Origin: Eledone cirrhosa
Taxonomy: Eukaryota
Direction: 5' to 3'
Assembly: GCA_964016885.1 (NCBI GenBank)
Contig: OZ024740.1
Coordinates: forward strand, 136,648,001-136,712,000
DNA: 64,000 nucleotides
Shown here piece by piece: positions 24,320-45,840 of the stretch (positions within the stretch are counted from its first letter, which is position 1; each line of letters starts with the position of its first letter). The notes under the pieces are model-generated. The model saw nothing but the letters and a program-made list of their open reading frames with translations. It was not told the origin of the DNA and did not search any database. A program made the translations under genes and the position numbers.

Positions 24320-24397
24320 CTTTAGTATATGATCAAGAGCTCGATCTCTCTGGACAGACATTCGGTAATTATGGGCCTGGTTAAACAGTTGATGTAA
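24320..24397 (-). CDS. CAD: CAD exon, ATC: LHQLFNQAHNYRMSVQRDRALDHILK
   Basis: ttcag acceptor, AAG|gtaggt donor, 78 nt, phase 0-0. Confidence 0.94.
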
Positions 24398-25643: not shown

Positions 25644-25810
25644 CTGTTCCTTGTGGAATGATTGGACATTGAGGACATGGTGACCAGCTAGACCTGAATG
25701 AACAGGAGGTGTGAACAAGTATGGAGCAGGCTGTGCAGCAGCTTGATCCTTCTTCAGCAAAAGATCACTACAAGGCAACACATTTCCGGAATACTCCCTG
25801 AGGAGAGGTT
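25644..25810 (-). CDS. CAD: CAD exon, linker end and ATC start: (E)PLLREYSG...GLAGHHVLNVQSFHKEQ
   Basis: cag acceptor, CAG|gtaact donor, 167 nt, phase 1-0; LxGxHxLxVxxFxKxQ ATC N-terminus. Confidence 0.93.
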
Positions 25811-27410
25811 CTGTTAAAGATAAAAACATAAAAATTTATATACATACCCTCACCTCCCTATATGAAATGTGTGTGTCCGTGTGTGTATATATATGTTTCT
25901 TGTAAGTCCAAATATATAAAGTACATAATAAATATAATGGAGTTTATTTATGTGAAACTTTCCTCTATTGCTACTTCAAAGCCTCTCAGAACATGAAGAA
26001 CACAAATCTCAGTAGCAACAGATCAAAGCCTCACCTTTCAATAAATGAACATATATAAACAAAATATTTCAAAAACAGTTCTCATTGAACTGGGGGGGAG
26101 GAAAAGTTTAAAAGCCAGCAAAATAGCTATAAAAAAATAAAAGCACACCTTGTTAAAGTTATATATAAAATTACATTTCTGCTTACCAGTTTGGAAGTTT
26201 TTTCATATAAAATCCTCAAGCCAAGGCAGATAATGATAAATTTGAACCTAGTATAAAATCACTAAAATTGTTTACCATGCCACTGTGATTTTGAACCCAT
26301 CAAAGAATTGGCAAAATGTTTTGGCGTGGGTGAGTGAGACTAGAAATGGAGTTTCCAACAGCAAATGTTAGCAGCGGACTTATAATGGTACCAATAACAG
26401 CGAAAGCATCTTCAAATCAAATGAGAGCGGGGTAGCAACAGTAGCATTAGCATTAGTAAACATTTTTTTTTCAAATACAAAGACAAATGTGGCACAGTGA
26501 ATGTATAGCAGTAACAAGATGCAGTGATGTATGAAACAGCAGAATTCCTACAATATATATTTTATTTTAGAACACTCCTTTTACATACTCTATAAACCAA
26601 GTGACATTTCAGTGAAGCTTTCCCACAAAAGCTGTTAGAAAATGTATGTGGTTGCACAACGTGCTAGAAGTGGCTGCCAAATCTATTAAATCACACCCTA
26701 CTGTCTTAAAATAATGGAAAAAACACTAAGATGCAGTCTTACAACATTGAGTTGTATGTACCGAGTTCAATATCTGTCTCTAATTACCAAAAAGAAAGAC
26801 TCCTGACATAGGAGTACAATCTCTTTTAAAGATCTAACAGCAGAATAGCAAACAACAGCCTAAAATTAGTGTGTTACACACATGTCCTGCCCCTATTGTG
26901 TGTGTCTAAGAAGTGTACTTTAAGTGGTTGGATTAGTATATAACAATCATGCAGCAACTTGTTGCCCTTAGTCAATTATAATGCGACCCCTATGAAATAT
27001 TAAATAACTAGTCTGTAGAAACCAAACCAAAATCGGTTCTGTATGAGCATGGCATGGTCACCAGACCTAGCATTGCTCACAACAGGATAACTCATCTAAC
27101 CCATGCCAGCGTAGAAAAATGGATGTTAAACAGTGATGATGATGAATAAAATTCGTTAGTATTATAAAAATCAAATTGGGAAAACAGTAAACAAAACAAC
27201 AAATATTTTAAAGCGGAATAAGGAGAAAAACTAAAGCAAAAAAAAAAAAAATCTTAATAGACAAAATTAGAATATTTTTTTAGTTTTCTAATTTTCATGA
27301 GAAAACTAAAAAAATATTCTAATTCACATAAAGGAGGTAGTCAAAATAACTATAACCAATGCAAAAATGTCATAGCAACTGCAGAGGAGATTAGAGGAGA
27401 GTGGATCCAG

Positions 27411-27566
27411 TCAAACCAAGATGGAAAAAAACCCCCCATCAAATCAAGGCCAGGACTATCAAACATCCATAGCATACTGGTAGGGTTATCAAACCAAGAT
27501 GACCCCCCCCCCCCCCCCAATCAAGGCCAAGACTATCAAACAGCTACAGCAAACTGGTAGGGTTGT
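27411..27566. repeat. Tandem duplication, 2 x about 78 bp
   Basis: tcaaaccaagatg..(C/A run)..aatcaaggcca.gactatcaaaca...actggtagggtt twice. Confidence 0.85.
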
Positions 27567-29361
27567 TAGAACAGTATTTATTCCAGCTACTGACATTGAA
27601 ATCTGTTTTTCAACTTTTTGAGGTTAATAAAATGTACTAAACCAAGGTGGTAGATTGGTTGAATGGTTAGAGCAAATGAGATGCTCTGTGCCATTTTTGT
27701 TCTGAGTTACTTCAGTAGTAGACTTAAGCTCATCTAGTTTAAAACCTTCACTTGATCTTGGATTCCTTTAGTGGAATCCACTTTATTGCAAGCATTTCAA
27801 TCACATCCTTTTCTCCCATCACCTGCCCCAGAGGCCTTGACTAAAGGTCATGTCTCCTAACTAAATAGTAAAAAAAAAAAAATGACAATCAGGATTTCTT
27901 TTTTTTTTTCAGCAAGCCTGAAACTTGTTTAAACCAGGTTAGTTCTGATTGTAAGCATAAGCACCGTGTTTATTCAGACATTTATTTGATACATTTCTTT
28001 TTTTCAAGACAGTAGGGTGTAATTTGAGGAAGATTTGGCTGCTATTTCTAACAGACTGAGTCACCCTAAAGAGACACTCTCATTGCTGGTTGACCAGAAA
28101 CATAGTTTAAGACATTTGTGAATGATTTATAGTGAAGACATTTCACAATGATTTATCAAAGGAAAAAAAAACAAAAATAACCCTGTTAGCACAACATAAT
28201 AGACAACTATTTAAAATTTGAAATGATAACAATGTAGCCTTCAAAATATATGAATGATGAATGCATATATGTAATTTCAAATAGTAAGGCCACCAACAAT
28301 GAACTACAGTAAGTGTATCACTGAGCATGAAAACGATTATTTGAACATTTTTTGTTAAACTCAATGTTTAAATAAAACGTTTGTATGGCAGGGCATCCAC
28401 TTGGTTCAAGATTGTTGCACTTAGCCATCAGAGATAACCAAAAATCTGATTCCAATAACAAGAGATTCTTTTATTTCACTGGTTTCAGACAGACCAGTAG
28501 CCATGATGGGTCACCACTTTCACAAAAGATGTAGTCATTCATATCAACCCCAGTACTTATTTTAGTGATTTCCATGAAACTTACGCAAGTTAAACAAAGG
28601 GACACAACCCTAGTAAATAAACTGCGTGTGTGAAAATCTAAGATAAATTTAACATATTTGAAACTTTAGCTATATCTACAAGACTTATGATATTATAATT
28701 CAAAGGATTTTATTCTCTTCATACATAGACAATTTCTGGCCTCGTGCTAATGTTAGAAAAAAATAAAAATTTAATAGATATTTAATCACAATGGAGCATA
28801 TAAGCACATATTAGATCAGATATAAACATTGCTATTCTCTTCATAAAAAAGAATAAACAAACAAACAAAAAAACATGATTGAACACACATGCTTTTTCTC
28901 CCCCACAAAATGATTTGCGTATTTTTTTTCTCTTCTCACTTTCTATTTTCCAAAACGTTAAAACTAATATAATTCCCCATTGTACTGCATTGTTTACTGC
29001 TTGTTGAGAGAGAGAGAAAGAGAGAGTGTGTGTAATTTATATACACATACATACACACACACACACACATAATATGTACATACATATATATATAAAACTA
29101 CATTGTTCAATGTTGCCTCTTATAATTCAAAATTAGGGTGTGATTTGAAGGAACTTGATTGAACAGACCAAGGTTGAAAAGTGTTGCAGTTATGACCACT
29201 CTGGCTTTTCATACATCAAGAATTATATTACACAATGTACCCTTTAACATAGGATAATTTGAAGGCAATTTGGCTGTTATTTCCAGTAGATCAATAACAG
29301 CTGACATGCATTGCTGTCACCTTATTAGCACAAAATTATATCTATCTAGCAATCTACCCAC

Positions 29362-29412
<51 letters not shown>

Positions 29413-31248
29413 AAATATACATGTTATTAATTCCTTTGAAGAGCTAGCTGGTTTAAGACATAGCGTGAGGCACGAATTACTTAGGGAGGCTGTGGTAGGT
29501 GAAAAGAGAAAAGGCTGACAGTTTCAATTGTGTGTGTATACTTACTCATACAAGTTGACAATAGGAGAGCATCAGAGCTTAGCTTTTGAAATCACAACAT
29601 TGACAGCCACCAAATGTAAAAGTTAAAAAAAATTTTTTTTTTTAAATCCAGGTTCAGTTCTACTGCATGGCACTCTCGGTAAATGTTTTCTATTAGCCTT
29701 GGGTCAACTTGTAAATGCAATTTGGAAGATAAAATTTGTGTGGGGGAGAGAGAGAGAGAGATGGTAGGGAATGGCAGTAAAAAAATATAGACATTCACTT
29801 CCTTTGGCCGTTGTCAACTAAGCATGAGACTAAACATTAGATAATAGATGTAAAAAGGCACCAGAAGCTGGATTCACCAACAAAGATCCAATGATGTATG
29901 CAGGGAAGGCCACTAAAAGATTTCAAGAATGCAGACCATATTTGATCCAATAAGGATTAACATGATTTTTGCTGAATTCATCTACAAAAACAATTATATA
30001 TAGACAGTATTTTTTCAGGTCTAAACAAAATTCAATAGTTTAAATTAATAGCTATCATTCAATAAAGATCGCTGGTTAAGAGAGAGAAGACAAACATCAC
30101 TTAAAATTTCTCCACTAAAATCCTTAATCATAATTGTTTCTACTTTAGGCACAAGGCCAGCAATTACCCAGTGCATTACTGGTGCAGACGAAACATATCT
30201 ACTTGGAGATGAATTTGCCAGATCTTATATCAATACAGAACTGTTACTAAATTTAAAATGATGCAGACAAGCTGTCGATATCAACAATGAGAAAGAAGAG
30301 ACAGACAAATTTAGAATGTCTCAATTAAACAACACAAAATAGTTCAATAATGCTTAAATGGCCATTGAGCTACAATCAGAGTGCCATCATTATTGAAAAA
30401 GCATAACAGAGCAAGTCAACCTGAACTGGGCCCTTCCACTCTCCTAGGCTATTGACTACGCAACAGTGTTCAATTTCACTCCTTGTATTTGTGAATAAAC
30501 TAGCTTGGAGAGCAGAGAGGCATTCCAGATAGAGCCACTACTTCTCTAAATTGAGAGATCACAGCTCTGATACTACAGGTATGTAGTTAGAATGCCTAAA
30601 GAATTTCTGGACAGATTTTAAAGGCAAAACCAACTGGCAAGAAACCCAGGGATAGACACTGAGCAAGATGGTTGTATAACATCTATGAGCTCAGGTAGTC
30701 TCACTTGGGGATCCAGTCAGAAAAATTGGAGACAGTTGCTTCTGACAGGACCTGCTGGAAGGAGTGTTTCAAGACTGCTCCTACAACCTTCCCAGGAATA
30801 AGTGGGTGAAGAAGAACAGAATATGAATCTGTTGTATGGATCAACTTACTGGAAAGTTCACCCCCTACTGAACAGACAAATCTAACCCTTTGGATTCACC
30901 ATTGACATTAAATCCATATATTAGATACAATGACAGCACAAACCACAACATAAGATTAGCAACAACACTGACATTCAATATTAGATAATGCCTATGCACA
31001 CATTTATGTGCGTACATCTGTGACCTGTAAGCGAACAAATGGAAACAACAAATCATGCACACACACACACACAGATTTACCCTGAAAATACAAGCATGTG
31101 TAGAATTTACAAGATGTTGCATCTAAAGGTATGTGTTTTAGTGCATATGTATGTCATATGTAATTAGTGTGTGTGTATGAAAAGTGTACATATCAGTGAT
31201 ATTAAAGACATTTTACTGAGGTAAACAGGCAAGGAAACCAATTGACAC

Positions 31249-31299
31249 CTGATGATGAGCATCTGCCATCATTACTGCTATACTTTGATACATTTCCCA
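31249..31299 (-). CDS. CAD: Candidate 51-nt CAD linker mini-exon (V)GNVSKYSSNDGRCSSS
   Basis: The 220-nt intron from the 31520 donor has no AG on the minus strand before ccttcttccaag; CAG|gtgtca donor; symmetric phase 1, no stop. Confidence 0.5.
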
Positions 31300-31519
31300 C
31301 TTGGAAGAAGGAATGATAAGAGAGGAAGAGAGAGGAAAAAGATGAGGGGAGGGGGGAGTGAGAAGATGAAAGAAACAGAGAAAGTGAGAGAAGTATATAG
31401 TGTTTGAGCAGCAGGAAAGGGTGGATGAACAGACAGAAAAGGGGGGGGGGGTGTTAGCAGGAAGACAATGGATGGGAAAGGGAGAGTAAAAAAAGAAAAA
31501 AAAAAGAAGGAGTATATAC

Positions 31520-31555
31520 CTGTGCCAAGCTCCTTTGAAGTAGGTTCTAAGTGAT
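31520..31555 (-). CDS. CAD: Candidate 36-nt CAD linker mini-exon (D)HLEPTSKELGT
   Basis: ctttccctccag acceptor with about 98 nt free of AG; CAG|gtatat donor; symmetric phase 1, no stop. Confidence 0.65.
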
Positions 31556-31669
31556 CTGGAGGGAAAGGTTACAACAAGAAGTGGAGAACAATTATAAAAA
31601 AAGCAAACAGAAAATGTTATAAATTAGGAAATAAAGTTTGGGGAAATTGAAAAACTCAAGCAATCCCAA

Positions 31670-31673
<4 letters not shown>

Positions 31674-31730
<57 letters not shown>
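31674..31730. repeat. (GT)n microsatellite
   Basis: About 28 GT units, roughly 120 nt upstream (transcript sense) of the 31555 acceptor. Confidence 0.95.
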
Positions 31731-31733
<3 letters not shown>

Positions 31734-31887
31734 TGCATATATATATATATAAAGTAATATTAGGCTGTAACAAATTTTGAAAAAGCCCTCCACCCTTATA
31801 AAAAAAAAGAGTAGAGCTATGATTATCTGAAGCTTGTTTCAAGCTATCTAATCATTAGCAGAAACTTTAGTGCTGGCATTTGTTCTA

Positions 31888-32110
31888 TAATAATAATGAA
31901 ATTATTGTGTACAGTGCTCAGGTGCACTACAACTCATCAAAGGTGCATGTATAGTACATAGAATAATGTACAAATGTCAGGAAAATGAACAGTGTACGAG
32001 TCATGATATAATAACAATAATGAAATATTGTTTACAGTGCCCAGGTGCACCACAACTCATCAAAAAAGTGCATGTACAGTACATAGGGCAATGCACAAAC
32101 ATCAGTAAAA
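31888..32110. repeat. Tandem pair of an interspersed about 120-bp repeat
   Basis: aataatgaaa.tattgt.tacagtgc.caggtgcac.acaactcatcaaa...; inverted copy at 4760-4860, fragment at about 19700. Confidence 0.8.
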
Positions 32111-32714
32111 TTCTGTTTCTTTATGTTCTAAGTTCAAATACCACCAAGGCCAATTTAGTTCCGTTTGTGACTCATTTCTAGTTCAAATCTCCTTGATGTT
32201 GACTTTCCTTAATTTCACTGACAAACAGCACCTATACCAGTATAAATAGTGTTGTTGAAGACAGCTTTTGGATTCACTTCAGCTCCCTTCAACTGGAATT
32301 AGGTATCATCATGCTAAAAACAGAGACTGCCCACCCATCCCTTCTTTAATATAATGATTGCAAGTGAGATGTATGAAGTTTTTTTTCTTAAACCACTTGC
32401 TCAAAGAGGAAAGGGCAATGCCCATGACTGTTTTTTTTTTTTCAGAGCATCCAAGATTGGTGGAAAGTATCTTTAAACAGGTGGTGATGTTAGACTGCGT
32501 GATGGATTAAGTTTACCACCCAAGAACTCAGAATAAAAAGAGATGGAATAAATACACAGAGCATCATGCCTGGTGCCTTAAAAATTCTGCTAATCCACTG
32601 CCCTAGACAGGCACTTTTATTTCAAACCCAAACAACTATATCTAACTGGAATTGAATCAATATGTATCTATAATATTCATAATATATTTTTAAAACTAGC
32701 TAAGTGCAACTATA

Positions 32715-32880
32715 CCGTATTTCCCAGCGCCAAAGACGCTTCGTCCTCGAGGACGCACCCTAATTTTGACAACCAAAAATTTATGGGGGGGGGGGGGGGG
32801 GCATCTGGCCTCCAGGACGCATGGTAGATTTTTTTAGACTTATTTAATGAAAAAAAGTAGCGTCTTCGACACCGAGAAAT
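32715..32880 (+). mobile_element. Truncated end of a Tc2/pogo-like DNA transposon
   Basis: TA-CCGTATTTCCC.GCG..AAGACGC terminus with internal GACGC repeats; no partner TIR found. Confidence 0.5.
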
Positions 32881-33556
32881 ATCGTAGTTTCTTTTGAGGA
32901 ATCTGCTTTCTGAAATGTAACTTTTGATGGAGTTGACAGAGCCCATCACCCGCCAGGTGTGAACACAACCAATTTCTTTCAGAATTGGAGAGAGCACGTG
33001 AAAAAGAGATATAGCAGAATTGACCCCAGTCCAGAACTGGTATTTTTTTTAATTTTATTTTTATCGGCCTCAAAAGGATAAAAGGCAAAGTTGACCATGG
33101 CAGGATTTGAAATCGGAGCATTGGAATGAATGTCAAAGCATTCTATCCGAAGTTCTGTCAATTCATAACCTATCTTTCAAGCAATCTTAATTTTAATGAG
33201 AAATTTGAAGAGATGGATTAGTCAATTAAATTGTGCCCAATACTTGACTGGTATTTTATTGACCAAAAAAGAATGAAAGGTACAGTTGACTTCAGAGAAA
33301 AGCATCTCAAACAAAAATACTGTCTGATGTTCTAATGGTTTTAGGAGTCCAATAATATATGATTGTTTCTAATTTAAGCACAAATCCAGCTATTTATGAG
33401 ATGAGGAAGACCCCAAGTACTTGATTGGTACTTTATTTTATTAACCTTCATGGGATTTGAACTCAAAGCACATTGATTCAAAACATACACCGAGGCATTT
33501 TTAACCGGACACCCTAAAGACTGACAATTTGTTACCTTCAATGCTCTAATATATGG

Positions 33557-33603
<47 letters not shown>

Positions 33604-34345
33604 ATTTTAAAAATACTGATTTAAAAAAATTTTTTTTTTACTGAATGCACATATATAAATATATATTTATATATACACACATACACACACACACAAAAGA
33701 AAAAAAAGTGAAAAGGGATTGAAAAAAAAGAAAAGAAAAAGAAACAAGAATATCAATCATTCAAAGAGATTAATGAAATATTTGATGCGTGCATGTGTGT
33801 ATATGCACAAACAAATGCTTGACTTTAAGCAGATCTTTTTTGTAAATGACACCCTTCAGTACATGGATAACTCAATTTGTTAAGTAATGCTTGCTTCTAA
33901 TGCAGCAAGCTACAAACTATTACCCCTCCCAGCCCCAGCAAAAGCAAGTAAGTATAGATTAAACTACAGGAATTTAATTTTTTTAAATTCTATGGAAGCA
34001 AGGACAAAGTTGTAGCACCATGATGGCATACATGAGAGAGGCTCCCATTTACACAATTTCAACTCAAAGCTAAAGTAGAAGACACTTGTTCAAAACCTTG
34101 TGCATGGAACTTGACTGTTTCTGCATAATTTCATGAACTTCACTATTCAGTCACACCTATACTCATACTAAGTAGAAGAATAACAAAATAGTGATAACTA
34201 GGTTCAAAGTTATAATGTGGTTAATAGTGGAATCCTCTAATTTCCTTTCATTTACCTCAGATCTAGTTCTCCATAATCTCATTAAATAGAGCCGCAGGTG
34301 CGCGCCTCACGAGATGAAATGGCTCTTCCAGCGCATCTCCCTTAC

Positions 34346-34488
34346 CATCCTCCGAGGAAACACCTTTTCCATTCTGTCTGCTGGGGCTGTGGTGCGGCCA
34401 GCACGTGGGACCCCATTTGCTCACTATACAGAGAGATGGGGGCAATAACAGTGGGAGTTTGGCTCTTCCATGTTCGGACACATTGCAC
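34346..34488 (-). CDS. CAD: Candidate CAD linker exon (143 nt from acceptor 34488, or 78 nt from internal acceptor 34423): ...SKWGPTCWPHHSPSRQNGKGVSSED
   Basis: GC-rich island in AT-rich intron; strong ATG|gtaagg donor; acceptors cttgacag (phase 2) and ctctctgtatag (phase 1) give the same open frame. Confidence 0.6.
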
Positions 34489-35393
34489 CTGTCAAGAGTG
34501 TATTTTCATACTTGTGACGAACATTGAATTCCTATTTATAGTTTGAATCCTTAGTATTGTTTTGCTACAAAATATAATCTTGTATCTAGTTCAAAATTGT
34601 TGAGAGAACATCTGCAGCTTATATAATAGGTAGGAACTGTAATTGTAGCAGTTGTCATGAGACAATCTGCAGTGTTATGGAGGCAGAAGTTTTTATGGTA
34701 TAGTAAAAAAATTTGAAAATATTTAATGTTTAATAATAACGTTTAACATAGAAATTTGGGGGAAGGAGACAGTCAATTGAATCAACCCCAGAAGTATGAA
34801 AAGTAAAGTCAATCTTGGCAGGATTTGAACTCAGAAGGTAAAAAAGGTGGAACAAATGCCACAAGATATTTTCTTCAATGTGCTAACAATTCTGTTTCTT
34901 AAACAATATAAGAATCCAAAACAACTAGCAACAAATAAAAATGACATGTTCATGATCTCTTTGAAAGATTCAAAATTCAAAACTACAAACAAAATTAATG
35001 TTCTATTGATTAAATTAAACAAGCATTAAATAAGAAAAACAAACACACACACACAAAACATGGTAAACTGATTAACAAAATTTAAATAACATTTAGAAAT
35101 AGAGCTGAAGAGTGTAATGAAAGTGTAGAGCAGTGTTTTGCAGCATCTACAATAACTTAGTACAAACAGAAATTGGATTATTCATCATATAAAGTGGATC
35201 TTATATACACTTAAGACAGTTTCAAATTTGGGGCAGCTGAGTGATAGGTGAATATTTTTCCTAAGTAGACAATATTTGGTGAAGATCAATAGGAGGAAAT
35301 AAATTTACTCAGCCAATTGTATTGTGTGTGTGAATAGAAAAAAAATTTAGTTAGGCAGGTTACATAGACATTAATTCTTTTTTAATGTATTCA

Positions 35394-35545
35394 GCAGACA
35401 TGGATGTGTGGTTAAAAAGTCTGCTGCAACCATTTGGTTTTAGGTTTCATCCCATTGTGTGGCATCGTGGGCAAGTGTCTACTAGAGCTTTAGGCTGACC
35501 AATACCATATGAATAAAATTTGGTAAATGGAAACAGTGTGAAGTC

Positions 35546-35546
<1 letters not shown>
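35394..35546 (+). mobile_element. SINE family 3 (tRNA head, CORE-like GGGCAAGTGTCT segment), representative copy
   Basis: catgg.tgtgtggttaa...ggtt..atcccatt head; decayed relatives at 8616, 16330, 38895, 41815 (+) and 200, 17325, 29590, 51560 (-). Confidence 0.7.
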
Positions 35547-35577
<31 letters not shown>

Positions 35578-36613
35578 ACACACACATTTGTGTGATCTTC
35601 TCATGTCTTCATATTAATAGCACTTAAATAACAAGTGTCATTTGTTTAAGTCCTGCTTAATCAATGCCTTGCAGCTCATTAGGTGAAGATCAGTGGAATA
35701 AACACTAATTTTAAAAAATGAGAGTTGGTGTCTGGAAGGGCATGAGCAGAGAATTCTGCCTTAATAAAAGTCTCATCCAATCCATGCCAGCATGAAAAAG
35801 TGGATGATTCTGAGTAATTTGGAGTGGAATTAAGGCAACAGAGCTGGCAAGTTTGAAGAAATTGTGCACATTATAGCATTAAATAAAGGAGACAAAATGA
35901 AAATACAATATAGGTTTAAAGGTTAAAGAAAGGTTTGATATAACCAAATGAATAGCTTTCTGAATACAGTCCTGGATATTAGAACAATATTTCATCAGCA
36001 ATTGTATTAAGGGCCTTGCAAAGTATTTGCAACTGCTCATTCAGAGCTAAGTCCTTTTTCATTTTGAAAATATATATATAAAAGGTAAGGTTTTAGGAAC
36101 ACAAATATTTCAGAAAGTTAATGAAATGGGAAGACTGTTGTTTCTTCTTTGTAGCAATATTGTTTGTGCTTTGATATTGTTATTGCTTTCTAATATTGTT
36201 AAATGTTACCAGACTGTCAGATTCTCAGAGGAAAGATTAGTGGGAAACCGCTAACATTAATAGTGAATAGATCATGAGGTTAGAAAGATAAGAAGGATGC
36301 TGCATCAACAGTACAAGAGGAGAGAGCTTTAGTGACAGAATCAAGTCATCAAAGAAGACAGGAAATAGATTCACAAAGATAAATAGATTTCAAGAGGTTT
36401 GCTGCAGTTTATGGGGTTAGGTGTTTTAGAGAACACAGTTGGCATGGTATGTGTAAATGACAATTGAAGAAGCTGTGGGTTCAGGCATAACCCAATAAGA
36501 TGGGGGTTGAACCAAGATATTTTTGTATCTTACTTTGTCACTTGTTTGCAAATACTGAAAACAACCACCTTGGCTTCATATTGCATTCTAGAGTTGAGAA
36601 CCAATGGAGATTT

Positions 36614-36646
<33 letters not shown>

Positions 36647-36757
36647 TTCAAGGAAAGCATCAATAAACAGTAATGCAATCAAATAAAACTAAACAAGTAA
36701 ATATTATTGATATTAATCACCATTTGCCACATCACAGTAGCAACCTACTGTTGTGTT

Positions 36758-36793
<36 letters not shown>

Positions 36794-36838
36794 CAGAACA
36801 TCTTAAATTTAAGGTCTAGGTGCTGTAGCAAATGTTAC

Positions 36839-36869
36839 CTCATCAGCAATCCTGGTCGACTGATGATCT
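36839..36869 (-). CDS. CAD: Candidate 31-nt CAD linker exon (E)IISRPGLLM(R)
   Basis: tttcag acceptor, GAG|gtaaca donor; phase 1-2, in frame only when paired with the 143-nt form of the next exon (31+143=174). Confidence 0.5.
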
Positions 36870-37299
36870 CTGAAATTTATATTACAAAATTAAATACATC
36901 GAATAATTTCTGAAATAGAAAAAATATTAAATTATGGTCTAGGGCCAATAGCACAAGCCTGCATAGCTCAGAATAAAGAGACCATGAACAAAGGCGTAAA
37001 GAAAATTGCTTCCAGCCATAGGATATGGATATTTGTGTGTGTATGGAGAGAGAGAGGGAGAACAACCGATTGCTATTTCAAATTATACTATCTAAAACAT
37101 TACATATCAAAGAAAGCTTTAGATTCTCGCACTATATGTATGGAATGTTTTCCTTTCTACATTTTACATACATTAGCTCTTAATTCTATTAAGAAATTGT
37201 ACAGATTATCCCTTAGCTACAGTTTGGAATAAACATCACCCAAATTCACAATGAGGTGTATATATTTTCAAACCAGTAATAAATGCATGCATTAAGATA

Positions 37300-37487
37300 T
37301 TTGGCAGTATCGGTAGAGAGTTGGACGCCATGCTTTGCAGCAAAGAGTTACAGCCCTTTATGGTCTGAGTTCATATCCCGCCGAGGTTAACTTTGCCTTT
37401 CATCCTTACGGGGTTGATAAAATAAAGTACCAGTAATACACTGGGATAATTGGTGGCTTTGTGCCAAAAGTAGAAACAATTATTATT
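37300..37487 (+). mobile_element. SINE family 1 copy
   Basis: High similarity to 4965-5160. Confidence 0.8.
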
Positions 37488-39594
37488 AATAAGTGCAGTT
37501 GATTGGCAGTATGATAGGAGTATCAGACAAAATATATTGTAGTATTTAGTTATAGCCCTTTAAATTCTGATTTCAACCCCAAAGATGATAACTTTACTGT
37601 TCATCTTTACGAGGTCAGTAAATGAAGTGCCAGTCGAATATTTAGGTTAATTAACTGAAATCTTTCTTCACCTAAAACTTCAGGCCTTCTGCCTGTCAGA
37701 AACAATATCAAAATATTCTACCATATGGCCATACAAAAAAAGCGAAGTTATGCAGTAGATATAATTTTAAAATAAAACAAAATTCTATAATGTTCATGCC
37801 TCAAAAGAGGCATTATCAACACCAGTGAAGTAAATTAACTGCTATCAGGGAAAGTAACTGAGTTGCAGACTTGGCTGTACACTGCTCACCACACCTAGGT
37901 ATTATAAACAATAAAACAAAGTACAGTTGAGGCGCAAAGTTGAAAAAAAATAAAACAAAAAAAAATAAATAAATAAAATAAAGTAACAATGGGGTAGATA
38001 GGGTTTATATATAGGTAGAAAGCTCTAGAATTATAAGATAAATTGAGGTGCTATTGCAATCATGCCTTTCTCAAAGGTATTCAGCACAGCCGAGCAAAGC
38101 CATTCTATTGAGAATCAAGACTTAGCCTGTGATTTCATTCACAGAAACAATTTTATGAATAAAGCACAATACTGCAAAATGTAGTTAGATGATGTAACCT
38201 GCTTAAGGGATATAAGGTAACATCTATACTAGGGTGACTGACCCACTGAAAAGCCATCAGGTTTAATCTTAACTACCCAACCACTGAATAACTGAAAATA
38301 ATGGATGATCCTGTATCAGATTTGATGAGCTTTCAGTCATTCAATTACCTGGATGTCTTACTAATTAAATTAATGCTTAAATGGCTTAGAATTCCACAGT
38401 TGTGTACATTTAATATAACTCACAAACAGAATCAGCACAAACAATGTGACATGGCTGGATCTTTGAATTATAGGTACAACCCATTTGACAGAAATCCTTG
38501 AACCTAATGGCTGTGAAAAGAGTTTCTTAACCACTTAAACATGCCTAATAATGATTATACTATTGACCTCAGTATATGAATTTTATGGGTGGTGAACTGG
38601 CAGAGTCATTAGATAGAACATTAGATAGACTTCTTTGTGTATTCTATCTGGTGTTCTGAGTTCAATAAATAAAGTACCAATCCAGTGCTGGGGTTGATTC
38701 TTTCTGTAAATCCCCACCCCTGGAAGAAACTGACTGTGGTCAGACCTGGAGAGGGATGGGATCCACCAGATTTAACATGCTCAAGACATGTCATATGTCA
38801 AAACAGCACCCCTTTGACTCCAAGAATTACAGGTACATTTGTATATATGAATATCTCTTGATACAGCTAACTGGATCATTTATGTAATGGAGTAGGCATT
38901 GCCATGTAATTAACAAGGTTGTACAGCATCTACATGGTTCAAGGTTCAATCTCATTGCATGACATTTTGGGCAAGTTTATTTTATTATAGGCTCAAGTTG
39001 ACCCATATCGTAGTGTATTTGGGAAACAGATATACATTGGGAAAAAATGTGTAAGAGCCTTTTGCGTGTATATATATATATATATTATACATGTTGAAGA
39101 AAACCAGTACATCAGACAAAAGTACATTGTTATATTGAAGTCCAACCGAGTTATCATCCATCTCCCTTTACGCCAACATAAACTTTGCTTTATATATACT
39201 GACAAAGTACATACATACATATATACACATATACATATATTAGTATAGGTACAATGTGGTAGAAATATATGTGTGTATGTATATAATTTTTCTGACTGAT
39301 AAGTTTCAAAAAGTTGGTACAATGCAGTAGAAATATTTAAAGGGCAAAGGATGACAAATAAATCAAAACAAAGCAAGGTTTTACCCAGTATTTTTATACG
39401 ATATTTCAAGGCTGTTATTTTCTTTTCAATTTTGTTTTGAACAGTTTCCATTTCACATTTGAAAAGAGAGGATTAGCCTCATAATATCACGCTGAAATTT
39501 ATTGGGTAAAACATTACTTTGTTTTGTTTTGTTTTATTTCTACTGCATTATACTGGCTTTCTGAAACTTATCAGTCAGAAAAATTACATACATA

Positions 39595-40480
39595 CAGGGT
39601 GCGGACGATATTTGTTCGCAATTTTCAACTGCTAATTTTATGCAATTTTTTTTTTACTTCCGTTGTCACTCTTGTCTTCATAAAAACAGTGACTATATTT
39701 CCATTATTTATTTTCAGAATAATTGATTATGAATAATTTTGAACCTCCAAATTTGTGGAAGAGACACGGAGTTCTTCTTGGAATCCGTGCCGGGAGGACA
39801 AATAAGACCAGAAGATCAACTCCCAGAACAACAGGTGGCTCGCTGTCTCATCCAAAGATGTGCCCAGAGTCATGCAGACAAAGTTTCCAGCGACAACATT
39901 GGTCTTAGGTGTCGTCAGCAGTCAAAGTGACATCATGCCACCTCACTTCTTCCCTGAGGCCCTCAAGCTGAACACCGATGGCTACATCTGCGTTCTGAAC
40001 GAGGTAGTAAAGTCCTGGATCGACCAGGTAGCTGCAGGTAGGCCGTATGTGTGGCAGCAAGACTCAGCGCCCTGCCATACCAGCCGAAAGACCCAAGCCT
40101 GGCTGTCAGAGAACTTCGTTGACCACACTTCACCTGACATCTGGCCTCCCAGCTCGCCTGACTGCAACCCCCTCGACTTCTTTGTGTGGGTGCAGTAGAA
40201 CGAGACACCAACAGATCTAGCTGCAATACGAAAGACAATCTGAAGGCCAGGATCATAAGTGCCTTTAGGGGCCTAAGTCGGGGGACAGTGACGAAGGCCT
40301 GTAGCCGGTTCCAAGGCCGCCTTGAGGCCGTCATCAAAGCCAATGGTGAGTTTATCGAGTGAGATCGAAAGAACAAGTCATGAAGACAAACTGACCCAAG
40401 TTTGATAAATAAATCTTAAAAAAAATGAAACTTATTTTTCCCAGACAGTAATCTTGTGAACAGATATCGTCCGCACCCTG
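39595..40480 (+). mobile_element. Internally deleted Tc1/mariner element of the DD37D (maT) type
   Basis: TIRs CAGGGTGCGGACGATAT.TGTTC.CAA flanked by TA; WQQDSAPCH...SPDCNPLD with 37 residues between the last two Asp; frameshifted. Confidence 0.92.
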
Positions 40481-41116
40481 TACACACATACGTGTGTGTT
40501 TTATTCTATTGCTAAGACGAAGAAAAAAATGAGTTCAAATATTAGTAAAACAAAACACTAAACACTGCAAACGATGAAGTAATTACATCTTAAAATCCAG
40601 AGATAAAATTATATACACATCACTCAAAACAAAAAGCACACACATAAAAATACAGTGTGTGTATATACATATATATATATATATATATACATAGCTATGC
40701 AAAAAAAGAGGACACTCGGAGGTGGGGAGAAAAGAAATATGAGTGGTGAGGAATTAAAGAAAAAAAAGAAGAAAAAAAAAAACCAAAAATAGCCAGAAAA
40801 CAAAAAAAAATGTAATGAAAATACACTGAATGGAAGGCAAACAGAATTATTAGAGAGACAGACAAAGTGAGTAACAAAGGAAAGAAAAGGCACAAACAAA
40901 TACACAAAAAAAATGGAAAGATCTAACTGGTGGTGGTGATGGGGGTTTTAGGTGTAGAGAAAAATGAATATTGGTGTAATGATGACTTGAACCAGTGGGG
41001 CTGGGGATAAATGTGGGAATGGGAGGGAGAGGAAGAGAGAAAAGCAGAAATTGAATTTTTTAAAACTTTTTTTTTTTAAAGAGAAAAAGTGAAAGACACA
41101 GGCAAACCAGTGGTAC

Positions 41117-41152
41117 CTGCCAACTGTAGTGTTTTTCTGTCTGGTTTCCCTC
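41117..41152 (-). CDS. CAD: Candidate 36-nt CAD linker mini-exon (G)GKPDRKTLQLA
   Basis: ttccag acceptor after about 90 nt free of AG and a long pyrimidine tract; CAG|gtacca donor; symmetric phase 1, no stop. No homology support. Confidence 0.6.
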
Positions 41153-41895
41153 CTGGAATGGGTAAATGTCAAAGGTGATCAGTATTTTTATAGATAGATA
41201 GAGAGAAGAGAAGGAAGGAAGAAACATGGAAAAAGATAATGGGCTAAAAAATTAAAAAAATTAAAAAATAAAGGAAAAAGGGGGTGAGAGAAAAGTGGAC
41301 CCCTTCCTCAAAGAAAAAGAATAGGAGAGATAAAGAAGGTAACTGTGAAAGGAGAGATAGGGGGATGAAAAAGAGAGGAACAGAGGTAAGGGCTGAAAAA
41401 GAGAAATGGAGGGTTAAGGATGAGAAAGACCCCCCCCCCCAAATAGGAGTGGGGGATAAAGACAGAAGAGAGAAGGAAAAGTTAGAAAGAGTGGGAGAGA
41501 CAAAAGAAGAAGGGAGAAATGAAGGAAGAGTAAGAAATAAAAGGAAAATAGGAAAACAAAATAAAGAGAAGGAACAGAAAAAGGAGACGCATTTTCCTTT
41601 GCATAAAAACAAAGTATAATTAATAGAGACAAAAATAAATAAAAAGCAATAAAAAGGAGAGGTTTTTCTAATTAGATGAACAGGAGAGGTGATTAAAGAT
41701 ATGAGAAGTTTTGAAATTGCATCCCACTCTAGGGGGAAGTGGTAATTTTACAAGTGTATTAGTTGTACATGATTAGAAATGTTGGAACAAATTGAACTAC
41801 ACCATTTGCTGCAGTATGGTTGTGGTTAAGAAGTTCACTTCACAACCATGTGGTTTTGGGTTCTGTCCCACTGCGCACACTTGAGGCAAATAGCT

Positions 41896-42624
41896 TTAAG
41901 CCTTTAGCATTTAAACCGGCTGTATCCAACCAGAATTCTCTCTTCTCTTTCCGTTCAAACCGGCCGTAACCTGCCACTCATGCCAATGTTAAGGTATTGT
42001 TCTCAATATCAGAGCTATGAGATTTTGATGATATTTATTTTATCATAATATAGTGCAGGACTGCGTCCAAAATATATCTTTTATTCCGTTTGTAAAATAA
42101 GTTGGATTACTTTGAATAAATAATGAATATTACATAATTTATGTACGAAATTTCGTAACTCTTGATTAAAGATTAAATATAAATAATTTTATTGCTTATT
42201 TCAAGATTCACTTCTTTAAAATTTTCAAATGTCAACACTTGCGGTTAGTGTCCGTTATATTATAACACTTATTACATCGCTTATATAAACGTTCATATAT
42301 TTCCATCGCTAATTTTTTCCTAATGCAGTTTATATATATCGTCTTTTTTAAATGTATCATGGATTACTTTACTGATTGCCATAGAGAGTGTAACACAGTC
42401 TCTCATCAAATTTCTGTGCATATTCTCAATTACAATTTTATTTGACGTATTATATTTAAATGCATATATATTTGCGTATAATATCAATAAGCACACTACA
42501 CATGCTAGCAGAAAACCACCTGAAGGGTGGTTTTTCTGCTAGTGTGGGATAATGATGTGAGGTAAAGCCTTTACCGTGAAAATACAATAGTAAATATAGA
42601 GTAATGTAAATGCTAAAGAGTTAA
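41896..42624 (+). mobile_element. piggyBac-type MITE inserted in a family 3 SINE and carrying a 500-bp insertion
   Basis: TTAA at both ends, TIR CTTTAGCATTTA/TAAATGCTAAAG; flanks align to 9128-9313. Confidence 0.75.
42043..42542 (+). mobile_element. Candidate non-autonomous Helitron
   Basis: A|TC start, CTAG|T end, subterminal hairpin AAAACCACC-TGAAG-GGTGGTTTT; absent from the sister MITE copy. Confidence 0.5.
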
Positions 42625-43539
42625 GGCAGCCGCAAGATGGAAACTAAGGAAGTCTGTCATGTATGTGTATGTGTATGTGTGATAGAAAAAAGTCTTCATA
42701 ACACTTTAGGCTGCCACATCTGTCTCCCACAGCATAGCAGTTGACAATGACAAGTAGTACATACTATACTATTTTTTAAAATCACCAAAGTATATCACCT
42801 ACAGTCATCTTGTTGTGTCAAAAAGCAAAGTTGACCTAAACAAGATTTGAACACAGAAACCAGTATATCCTAAACTAAAAATGCTTTGCAAGGACAACTT
42901 CCCTGCTATACACACATGAATAGAGTCCACAACAAAACTAGAAAGTTGTGACATTCATATCTTTCGAGAGAGTGTTAGTAGCTAAAGTGAAATGAAGTGA
43001 TTTCCATTTGGAACACAGAACCAGTCATGGATATTTGTGTCAGAGACTGCATTTTTAGTATAAATTATACACACACACTTTTCTATCCATGAAAAGAAAG
43101 AAAACGATATTTGTTTAAAATGTCACAATACAATGATGGCAGGTGACAACATATTTATGGCTGTTCGACTTGCGAGAAATAACAAAATCACTTCCTAAAG
43201 TTTTAACCCTTTTGCAATGAAACTATCTGAAACCATACTAAACTGTTTATATTAATCTATAAACTTTCCATCATCATTTTATGTAAAAACCCCAGTTAAG
43301 TTATGCTCTGTTATTACATTTTATTCTGACACATTCACTGTCTCTATACTATCTTATTTATTTCATTATCTAAGACTATGTGTTTGTTACAATTGCTCCA
43401 TCCAAATGTATTTCTTCAGCAATCCAAAGAATCTGATAAATTAAGCATGTCAGTGTTTGTATATGAATGATGTAATGGAAATCAGATCAATTAGCGAAAT
43501 CAATAATTTAGAATATGTGTGTATATCTCACAAATTAGT

Positions 43540-44340
43540 GAACACAAACACATCATCGCTTTTATTTCCAATTCCACACTTCCATGGATCCTTCTCAGCA
43601 CGGCATCTCTCCACTTGTTGCATTTCTTCGTCATCTCCCCCGCCAGGCTTAGTGATTTGAGGTCAGCTCTCACAAGCTCTGCACAGGTCTTTCTTAGTCA
43701 TTCTCTACTGCGGCTTCCTTCCACTGGGATTTACTGGCATTTCTTCACTCATCGGTCATTGTCCATATAAATGCAATCTTCTCTCCTGCACATCATCTAG
43801 GAATCCTCTTGAACCCAGCTTCTCCCTCAGTTCATCCAACGAAACATGGTTGCTTCATTTCTCTTTCTCTCCAGTTTACACGTCTTCTGCAGTCACAGCC
43901 CATGTTTCATTACCTTCCGGCATCATGCACTACACACAAGCATCATACAGCCTTCCTTGTCAGCAGTGGGAGTGGTTCTCTGAAGTTATGTACATAGGGA
44001 GAAACTTTTTGTGGTCAGCAGTGGGAGTAATTCTCTAAACTTCTTCCATCCCATCTTTATTTGAGCTATTATACTATCGTCGCACCTTCCACTGCTAACT
44101 AGGTCACCTAGATAGCAGAAGTTATCAACCATGTCTATGGATCTTTCCTGTAATTGGAAAACGTTTATATCATTGGTACTCTTCCTCCTGTGCATATACA
44201 CGCAAAGTTCTCCCTTCCTGTTAGTCTTCTCGTTATCCCACTACATCGCTTGTGTACCAAAGATTTACTTTGTGTACAGTGTATAGAGTTTATGCCTACT
44301 CCTTTTCTACATATTAAGTATGGCCACTTCCCTGAGGGAA
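43540..44340 (-). mobile_element. Degraded 5'-truncated RTE LINE (PHD-bearing family)
   Basis: [47 protein letters not shown] remnants. Confidence 0.88.
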
Positions 44341-45563
44341 CTTGAAAGTAATGAGTTCAAGAAAAAAAAGATACCAATTGCATATGCACTTCTGGGGTGG
44401 GATGAAGTTTGTACAGAAAATGTTAATTCTAAAAACATTTACATGCATTATATATATATATATATAAATATAAAGACAACAAAATTTGAGCAACAGAAAC
44501 TATGTGGTGAGAGAGAGGGAGAGAGAGAGAAACAGCTGGAGAAGCAGTCATCAGGAATATCCACATGACCAACTAAGTTTTGGGACCAATGATGGTAACA
44601 ATAATGGTTACTAATTTAGGCACAAGATTAGCCATGTAGACAGATGGGAAAGTCGATTATATCGACCCCAGAAGGACAAAAGGTAAAGTTAACCTCAGAA
44701 GGATTCAAACTGTGATGCTTTTAGATAATCTGTTTGTACTAAGTAAGCACTATCAAACAGTCATTAATGCCATACTTCAACCACAACACTAAACTTACAT
44801 CATAGACAACACCTACTTTGACACTAGTGACTTGTTTAGATGTTGAAAAGCAGATCACATCTTAAAGAACATTCTTTTTACAAAAGATTATATACATACA
44901 CACACATATTTTCCTCCTCTATATCTTTTTCTCACTCCCTATCACTCTTCTCTGGAAGAAATTGGTTGTGTTCAGCCATGTAGAGGGATGGGCTCTGCTA
45001 AGTTTAAAATGCCCAAGCAAGGCTTTAATCCATACCTATATATTTCACAACAAACTCTAGAAATTATATTTTCCTTATTGGCATCACAAATCATAGTCTT
45101 ACTTTTATATACTACCCCTGCAAAGATAGTTGAGGTGACCATGCAAAAATTTAGATGCTCATCAGAGAAGTATTAGCTGGGAAGTTAAGATGCTTGGCAA
45201 CAGCCATAGCATGTCTCCTGAGCAAGCTATGTAACTTTGCTGGATTCAGTCTGCTCAAGTGAAAAACATGATCTATCCCTCTTATTTCACACTTGAGTGA
45301 TTAGAAAGAGCATCTAGCTATAATGAAGGCAACCAGCCTAACAATATGTTATAATATAGCATAACCAATGTTATAATTACATTTTTTTTTTTAAATTAAG
45401 CTCCATTGACTGTTAATCCGTACATAGATAGGGCAGGCAAAATACTATTTGCCCAGCAATTCATACCATTCATTCTGAATATGATATAGGGGGAAAAAAA
45501 TGGAGAAAAAGAGATATAAAGGCAGAAAGGTGACCCTCAAAATGATTTGTTGTCTCAACTTAC

Positions 45564-45840
45564 CATGATGGTATGGAGCCTGGTGTGGTTCATGTGTTGG
45601 TTGTGGCACCTTTGGTATGCCACGATTGGGGAAGGCAAATGAGGCGGGTTGGTTACCAGCAGCAGTTAGTGTTGTAGATGGTATCATTTTACGAGGGCTT
45701 GTAGGTTCAGATGGTGGCTGTGACAGTGATGCCATAGTTGGAATCTGAACAGTTAATTGCTCACTGATGGGTAGTTGGGTTGATACTGTTGGTTGTGGCA
45801 TTGAGCGGACATCTATACCAAAACCAGGCTGTACTAGAAC
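45564..45840 (-). CDS. CAD: CAD exon, end of DHO plus Pro/Ser/Thr-rich linker: VLVQPGFGIDVRSMPQPTVS...QAPYHH
   Basis: cag acceptor, G|gtaagt donor, 277 nt, phase 0-1; VLVxPGxGxDVR matches the DHO end. Confidence 0.93.

What the first reader, a model, noticed from the sequence alone, without database searches (positions are those of the whole stretch)
25811..45563. Cassette of frame-preserving phase-1 mini-exons in the CAD DHO-ATC linker intron
Seen: this phase-1 intron is 19.75 kb, far longer than any other complete CAD intron here. It holds stop-free GT-AG units that keep frame: 36 nt (41117-41152), 31+143 nt (36839-36869 with 34346-34488) or 78 nt (34346-34423), 36 nt (31520-31555) and 51 nt (31249-31299). 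Several have long AG-free pyrimidine tracts. Known: the CAD linker is disordered, poorly conserved, and in mammals carries the S6K1 site Ser1859. Inference: combinatorial splicing could tune linker length and Ser/Thr content of a housekeeping enzyme, adding up to about 99 aa.
Basis: partly seen in the sequence, partly recalled or inferred. Interest (0 to 1): 0.75.

Follow-up and report, generated by a model that had tools for sequence, protein, structure and literature searches.

The report
Two optional mini-exons in octopus CAD
Two tiny exons hidden in a long intron of the octopus pyrimidine-synthesis enzyme CAD are likely spliced in or out independently, lengthening a flexible linker by up to 23-24 amino acids; database isoforms of other molluscs, amphioxus and fishes vary at a matching spot, while the other four proposed exons found no support.

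Summary
Partly right. All proposed AG..GT units exist and keep frame, but the intron holds 779 such units by chance. Two are real exons. 31520-31555 is spliced straight onto the next exon in a transcript contig. Both it (12/12 residues) and 41117-41152 (9-10/11) appear in four combinatorial isoforms (neither, either, both) annotated for three Octopus species. The added length is 23-24 aa, not about 99. The 143/78-nt unit is an antisense piece of a high-copy repeat whose copies carry the same splice-like sites. The 51-nt and 31-nt peptides occur in 0 of 20 cephalopod records. The octopus linker has no RxRxxS/T motif. The wider result: 21 of 25 record groups compared (molluscs, amphioxus, fishes) differ by an optional segment of unrelated sequence at a matching linker position, which in fishes lies just behind the S6K-type motif. 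The isoforms are in databases; my paper searches found no description of them. Tissue specificity and function are untested.

The parts
45564..45840 (-). CAD exon A: end of the DHO domain and first ~80 aa of the DHO-ATC linker; ends in phase 1
   Evidence: Frame and splice sites; 65-69 of 80 linker residues identical to Octopus records
41117..41152 (-). Cassette mini-exon 1. 36 nt from the CAG acceptor (12 aa) or 33 nt from the tandem GAG acceptor (41117-41149, 11 aa, the length in the three named Octopus species)
   Evidence: Peptide present in 6 of 20 cephalopod records, i.e. isoforms X1 and X3-type of three Octopus species; rank 1 of 775 by gene-trained splice model; single-copy. Not tested by RNA in this species
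41180..41609 (-). Long pyrimidine tract upstream of mini-exon 1 (a second one at 40682-40858 downstream)
   Evidence: 8 sense-strand tracts of >=80% pyrimidine over 100 nt versus 0 antisense in 124.5 kb; 5 adjoin constitutive exons, 3 flank the two mini-exons
31520..31555 (-). Cassette mini-exon 2, 36 nt, 12 aa
   Evidence: 30 of 30 loose-end letters of a contig at the start of exon B in run X1 are this exon; 12/12 identical in three Octopus species and a diverged form in an unnamed sister cephalopod cluster; present in 11 of 20 records
31283..31531 (-). Pyrimidine tract downstream of mini-exon 2; also the AG-free stretch that made the 51-nt unit look like an exon
25644..25810 (-). CAD exon B: end of linker and start of the ATC domain
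   Evidence: Covered exactly by a depth-144 contig with loose ends matching the neighbouring exons
34290..34494 (+). Fragment of a dispersed repeat, antisense to CAD; contains the proposed 143/78-nt unit. Not considered a CAD exon
   Evidence: 4,448 candidates in the genome; the three splice-like sites are all in copy L003; + strand reads as the end of a retroelement-like ORF (family label recalled, Pfam gave no hit)
36839..36909 (-). Unresolved: strong acceptor/donor pair (71 nt, or 31 nt from 36869) that would shift frame and stop; possible poison exon or decoy
   Evidence: Rank 1 (71 nt) and 8 (31 nt) of 295 any-frame units; single-copy; no use shown
31249..31299 (-). Proposed 51-nt unit, probably not an exon
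   Evidence: AAG acceptor (0 of 35 true CAD acceptors), rank 80 of 775; skipped in the X1 contig; 0 of 20 records. In its favour: CTAAC 158 nt upstream of the acceptor

Best explanation
The 19.75-kb stretch is three introns around two short phase-1 exons (41117-41152 and 31520-31555) that are likely included independently, giving four CAD forms whose DHO-ATC linker differs by 0, 11-12, 12 or 23-24 residues. Shown: exon 2 is spliced to exon B in a transcript contig from this species; both peptides occur alone, together or not at all in records of three Octopus species. Inferred: exon 1 is used the same way here; weak donors plus long pyrimidine tracts make inclusion depend on RNA-binding regulators, probably by tissue or stage. 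Inferred and untested: because the inserts fall in the disordered tether between solved DHO and ATC domains, they leave catalysis intact and at most adjust linker reach, packing in the hexamer or kinase access. The same intron position appears to be a long-lived splicing hotspot refilled with unrelated sequence in different animal lineages.
For: Junction exon 2 to exon B in run X1, while X2-X4 run through the intron as DNA. Four isoforms of 2244/2255/2256/2267 aa in each of three Octopus species, differing only by these two inserts. Exon 2 with and without in two near-identical pairs from an unnamed cluster that is sister to octopods (SH-aLRT 100, quick tree). Exon 1 ranks 1 of 775 and above 4,447 control units. 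Strand-biased pyrimidine tracts flank both. Inserts at residues 1899-1921 of P0416, between the DHO match (to ~1824-1841) and the ATC match (from ~1956). Optional segment 20-45 aa after the SP[RK] motif and 37-55 aa before ATC in 20 of 25 groups, plus the chiton pair.
Against: Only one RNA-like run, of unrecorded type and possibly from the assembly's own project; it shows one junction, so alternative use is not shown in this species. Exon 1 was not covered by the laid stretch. The isoform records are database gene models, and the O. vulgaris set may be derived from another annotation. The window's exon 1 is 36 nt from the better acceptor but the named species have 11 aa. The Argonauta record has neither exon and no record of the unnamed cluster has exon 1. 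12/12 identity of exon 2 against 81-86% in the flanks is not significant by itself (about 0.1). No tissue data and no functional data. Intron-position homology across phyla is read from proteins only.
Confidence: 0.85

Rival explanations
1. One reading: five or six units combine and add up to about 99 aa.
For: All units are frame-compatible; the 51-nt unit has a 218-nt AG-free tract and a CTAAC; the 31-nt unit has strong sites.
Against: 0 of 20 cephalopod records hold the 31, 143/78 or 51-nt peptides; largest insert 23 aa; the 143/78 unit is a repeat whose copies carry the same sites; the X1 contig skips the 51-nt unit; 779 chance units.
Confidence: 0.04
2. In this species exon 2 is constitutive and exon 1 is dead or rare, so there is a single invariant chain.
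For: In X1 the exon B contig begins with the four letters shared by exon 2 and the intron, so no direct A-to-B branch is left in that graph, and the upstream contig runs at least 255 letters.
Against: Contigs drop rare variants and come from one sample; exon 1 keeps 9-10 of 11 residues and the best splice score; skipping of exon 2 is recorded in three Octopus species and the unnamed sister cluster.
Confidence: 0.08
3. The exons are real and alternative but close to neutral: a disordered linker tolerates inserts, so small exons arise and vanish at this intron without a regulated role. (Compatible with the best explanation's anatomy; differs on purpose.)
For: Optional segments of different lineages share no sequence; no S6K-type motif in the octopus inserts; one review passage says Ser1859 phosphorylation has a minor effect on catalysis or allostery (PMC8508918).
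Against: Exon 2 is recognisable across the deepest cephalopod split sampled and the fish segment across sharks, sturgeon and teleosts; all 14 named mollusc groups compared vary at this one place.
Confidence: 0.35
4. The two 36-nt units are a mutually exclusive, duplicated pair.
For: Same length, same phase, same tract architecture.
Against: Isoforms with both exist in three species; 11 matching bases at best, reached by 81% of shuffles.
Confidence: 0.02

Closest known systems
RefSeq/UniRef CAD isoforms X1-X4 of Octopus bimaculoides (XP_014788813/14/15/17) and O. sinensis (XP_029635733-36); O. vulgaris CAI9721148-51
   Same: Same two inserts at the same junction, all four combinations.
   Different: The window's animal is another octopod (65-69 of 80 linker residues identical); its exon 1 has a tandem CAG/GAG acceptor and may be one residue longer.
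Optional 13-15 aa segment after RxHRxSDPGLP in fish CAD (Megalops X1/X2, Myripristis X1/X2, Astyanax, Centroberyx X1)
   Same: Short optional segment in the DHO-ATC linker, 27 aa after SP[RK], 42-51 aa before ATC.
   Different: No sequence similarity; one segment, not two; it directly follows the S6K-type motif, which octopus lacks.
Two combinatorial linker cassettes of venerid clams (Ruditapes, Mercenaria X1-X4)
   Same: Two optional segments, four isoforms, same place.
   Different: Unrelated sequences, 12-18 aa each; probably independent origin (inference).
eMIC/SRRM3/4-dependent neural microexons (PMC8797185, passages read)
   Same: Short, frame-preserving, long AG exclusion zones, long CU-rich tracts, weak donors.
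   Different: No UGC within 40 nt of either acceptor; 33-36 nt is above the 27-nt class limit (limit recalled); neural inclusion untested.
Human CAD 96-aa DHO-ATC linker with S6K site S1859 (PMC8442968, 10.1101/2024.07.30.605799; passages)
   Same: Same disordered linker, modelled as filling gaps between CPS-2 domains in the hexamer.
   Different: Octopus linker is 136-159 aa by the measure and has no RxRxxS/T; the passages searched give no hit for 'isoform' and none on linker splicing.

Membership tests
CAD (CPS-DHO-ATC fusion) | GLN/CPS, DHO and ATC domains in one gene | tested here: met
   tblastn of two CAD proteins maps exons over 12.6-136 kb; Pfam OTCace_N on the ATC exon
Frame-preserving alternative cassette microexon | Canonical AG/GT ends, 3n length, same phase on both sides, no stop | tested here: met
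   for both exons
Frame-preserving alternative cassette microexon | Spliced junction in transcripts of this species | tested here: inconclusive
   Met for the 3' end of 31520-31555; 41117-41152 not covered
Frame-preserving alternative cassette microexon | Isoforms with and without the exon | tested here: met
   In orthologue records of three Octopus species; not shown within this species
eMIC/SRRM3/4 neural microexon | Long AG exclusion zone and long pyrimidine tract | tested here: met
   89 and 97 nt; upstream 100 nt 74-75% pyrimidine. True constitutive CAD acceptors range 19-149 nt, so this is not unique to them
eMIC/SRRM3/4 neural microexon | UGC motif close to the 3' splice site | tested here: not met
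   No TGC within 40 nt of either acceptor
eMIC/SRRM3/4 neural microexon | Strong CUAAY branch point | tested here: inconclusive
   CTAAT at -72 for exon 2; only looser YTRAY at -30 and -20 for exon 1
eMIC/SRRM3/4 neural microexon | Neuron-restricted, eMIC-dependent inclusion | not testable with these tools
   No tissue-labelled RNA available
Mutually exclusive duplicated exons | Never both included; homologous to each other | tested here: not met
   Both-included isoforms; no similarity above shuffles
Exonised transposable element (143/78-nt unit) | Derived from a dispersed repeat | tested here: met
Exonised transposable element (143/78-nt unit) | Spliced into mRNA | tested here: not met
   0 of 20 cephalopod records; a species-specific rare use is not excluded
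Poison (NMD) exon (36839-36909/36869) | Good splice sites and a premature stop when included | tested here: met
   Ranks 1 and 8 of 295; the 31-nt form stops early in exon B; the 71-nt form has an in-frame TAA (sequence)
Poison (NMD) exon (36839-36909/36869) | Inclusion seen, rises on NMD inhibition, conserved | not testable with these tools
   Invisible in protein records; no read-laying run left; no related genomes held

The most novel reading that the evidence does not exclude
One intron in the CAD DHO-ATC linker has been a regulated splice switch since the bilaterian ancestor: the position is kept while the cassette sequence is reinvented in each lineage, and inclusion rewires kinase control of de novo pyrimidine synthesis. 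In scallops inclusion creates an RxRxxS motif and in amphioxus adds one; in fishes the cassette starts 7 residues behind the S6K-type serine and would span the position of the human PKC site S1873; in octopus two cassettes give four linker lengths.
Probability: 0.3. Interest if true: 0.72.

Novelty: new member of a known kind. Interest (0 to 1): 0.42.

Why it matters
CAD sets the rate of de novo pyrimidine synthesis and is studied as one 250-kDa chain whose DHO-ATC linker is controlled by phosphorylation. If that linker is also switched by splicing in molluscs, amphioxus and vertebrates, then a second, overlooked control layer sits beside the mTORC1/S6K site, and the open question of how the linker affects hexamer assembly gets natural variants to test. 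For octopus alone the result is modest: two small exons that databases already annotate in related species.

Tried and rejected
Exon A as protein query found nothing among 162-2000 aa proteins, because full-length CAD is longer. The look-up of sequencing runs: no RNA holder listed; four runs of unrecorded type from one study. Laying reads over the whole intron was not possible, so junctions of exon 1 and of the 31/71-nt unit are open. The representative search with the ATC exon returned no cephalopod among the 10 hits looked up. A first profile search was swamped by fungal proteins. A 41-row alignment of all exons was misaligned and dropped. In one search row L002 was given in the wrong orientation and is ignored. 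Duplication of exon 1 from exon 2 rejected. Four of 25 groups did not show the optional segment as a within-group difference: Paramormyrops (both lack it), Salvelinus (both have it), Oreochromis and Gadus (unclear models). The careful tree did not finish; the quick tree is cited. Paper searches on CAD splicing (8, 0, 3, 2, 0, 0 papers, listings only, none about the linker), on octopus microexons (one preprint, no 'CAD' in its main text; its supplements are closed and could list this exon) and on the linker. The one supplement searched lists only a different, 99-nt mouse Cad exon. Earlier findings of this scan: none.
Full report
Setting. The window holds the 3' half of CAD on the minus strand. 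With 200 kb of neighbouring genome, tblastn and a junction search gave a gene model with 38 junctions, 34 of them trusted; with the two outer sites of the linker intron that makes 35 donors and 35 acceptors for training. Exon A (45564-45840) ends the DHO domain and starts the linker; exon B (25644-25810) ends the linker and starts ATC. The genome is an octopod's: the ATC exon is 112/113 identical to Octopus and Argonauta records, but the linker part of exon A only 62-69/80, so it is none of the named records.

Observation. That alone means little: the intron has 779 such units. It is the longest complete intron in the window but not in the gene, which has one of 31.4 kb. At least 21% of it has a second copy within 264 kb.

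Sorting the units by sequence. A splice model trained on the gene's own sites ranks 41117-41152 first of 775 units and above all 4,447 units in 78 kb of other CAD introns; 31520-31555 is tenth (12 of 4,447 controls score as well), the 78-nt unit fortieth, the 51-nt unit eightieth. A stricter filter on tract architecture keeps only the two 36-nt units, but I chose it after seeing them. Pyrimidine tracts of at least 80% over 100 nt occur 8 times on the sense strand and never on the other in 124.5 kb; five adjoin constitutive exons and three flank the two 36-nt units. The long tract before the 51-nt unit is the downstream tract of 31520-31555, and its AAG acceptor matches 0 of 35 true acceptors. 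The 143/78-nt unit lies inside a repeat with 4,448 candidate copies; copy L003 carries both acceptors and the donor, so they came with the repeat. On the + strand it reads like the C-terminal end of a non-LTR retroelement ORF; that label is recalled, and Pfam gave no hit. The other units are single-copy.

Transcript evidence. Of four runs of unrecorded type, X2-X4 run through the intron as DNA. X1 behaves as RNA: a contig of depth 144 covers 25644-25814 only, its loose end at 25644 matches the next exon (24320-24397), and a loose end at 25814 matches 30 of 30 letters of 31520-31555. So that exon is spliced directly to exon B and the 51-nt unit is skipped in that molecule. No other predecessor of exon B is visible, but contigs drop rare forms and this is one sample. 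Exon 1 was outside the stretch laid.

Orthologues. A profile search reached the Octopus CAD cluster. Its members include four isoforms each for O. bimaculoides, O. sinensis and O. vulgaris, of 2244, 2255, 2256 and 2267 aa. They differ only at the A/B junction: an 11-aa insert matching 41117-41152 (10/11 in O. bimaculoides, 9/11 in the others), a 12-aa insert identical to 31520-31555, both, or neither. The window has CAG-GAG at the exon 1 acceptor, so it makes 12 aa from the usual CAG or 11 from GAG; I could not tell which. An unnamed cluster, sister to octopods in a quick tree (support 100) and so probably squid or cuttlefish, has a diverged exon 2 in 5 of its 7 long records and lacks it in 2; none has exon 1. 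The single Argonauta record has neither. Peptides of the 31, 143/78 and 51-nt units match 0 of 20 records in any open frame. These are database gene models, not experiments.

A shared hotspot. Comparing records within 25 species groups, 20 differ by an optional segment 20-45 aa after the SP[RK] motif and 37-55 aa before ATC, and the chiton pair, which that script failed to parse, does too. This covers all 14 named mollusc groups (the Magallana pair is across two sister species), both amphioxus groups and three fishes. The groups were picked for having several records, so the informative point is that they differ at this place. The segments share no sequence. Clams have two combinatorial segments, as octopus does. 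In scallops inclusion creates RxRxxS and in amphioxus adds one. In fishes the segment starts 7 residues after the serine of RxHRxS and is recognisable in sharks, sturgeon and teleosts. That this serine is human S1859 is recalled; papers place S1859 in this linker (PMC8442968; 10.1101/2024.07.30.605799) and name S1873 as a PKC site (PMC8508918), which by arithmetic would fall in the equivalent segment. I saw passages of these papers, not whole texts. That all these segments sit in one homologous intron is inferred from proteins.

How it likely works. Shown: exon 2 is spliced; four combinations are on record in relatives; the inserts (1899-1921 of P0416) lie between the solved DHO and ATC domains. 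Inferred: weak donors (2.4 and 1.9 bits against a median near 5 for true sites) and long CU-rich tracts make inclusion depend on splicing regulators. The exons share the long AG-free zone of eMIC-type neural microexons but lack the UGC, so they are not filed there. Inferred and untested: the linker fills gaps between CPS-2 domains in a hexamer model, so 11-24 extra residues could alter reach, packing or kinase access without touching active sites. The octopus linker has no RxRxxS/T, so direct S6K tuning is unsupported here. Near-neutral turnover remains a serious rival.

Novelty. The two exons are already annotated in related species. Six searches on CAD splicing and one on octopus microexons found no paper describing them or the cross-phylum pattern; the library lacks most subscription papers, and the closed supplements of one exon-orthology preprint may list the event. 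Verdict: a new member of a known kind, with an apparently unreported evolutionary pattern worth a follow-up. Interest 0.42.

Noticed in passing
window:36839-36909 (-): Best-scoring acceptor/donor pair of 295 any-frame units in about 98 kb of CAD introns, as strong as the best true exons, single-copy, followed by a 30-nt U run; both the 71-nt and 31-nt forms would truncate CAD before ATC. Candidate poison exon.
   Followed up: partly
window:31249-31519 (-): A CTAAC lies 63 nt after the donor of exon 2 and 158 nt before the AAG of the 51-nt unit, with an unbroken pyrimidine tract between: the layout of a distant branch point. No use seen.
   Followed up: partly
window:41149-41152 (-); P0430 vs P0428: Tandem CAG/GAG acceptor at exon 1; abalone isoforms X1 and X2 also differ by one residue at the start of their optional segment.
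   Followed up: partly
P0454, P0449 (scallops); P0489, P0488 (amphioxus): Including the optional segment creates or adds an RxRxxS motif; one amphioxus record has it twice.
   Followed up: no
P0463, P0466, P0397, P0467 (Dreissena): Three different optional segments (22, 14, 7 aa) or none at the same point, suggesting mutually exclusive choices.
   Followed up: no
P0487 (amphioxus), P0279 and P0341 (fishes): A second optional segment earlier in the linker, about 31-33 aa from its start in amphioxus and Salvelinus.
   Followed up: no
window:55141-64000 and on to G000:C1:136733926: The gene's longest intron (31.4 kb) contains about 9 kb of AT-rich tandem repeat with embedded retroelement pieces.
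   Followed up: no
window:22115-23131 (+), 39806-40198 (+), 46937-49375 (-): Broken ORFs that look like Tc1/mariner transposases and a LINE reverse transcriptase (labels recalled, not tested).
   Followed up: no
L004:1790-2642: One copy of the repeat behind the 143-nt unit ends in about 11 tandem units of 79 bp.
   Followed up: no
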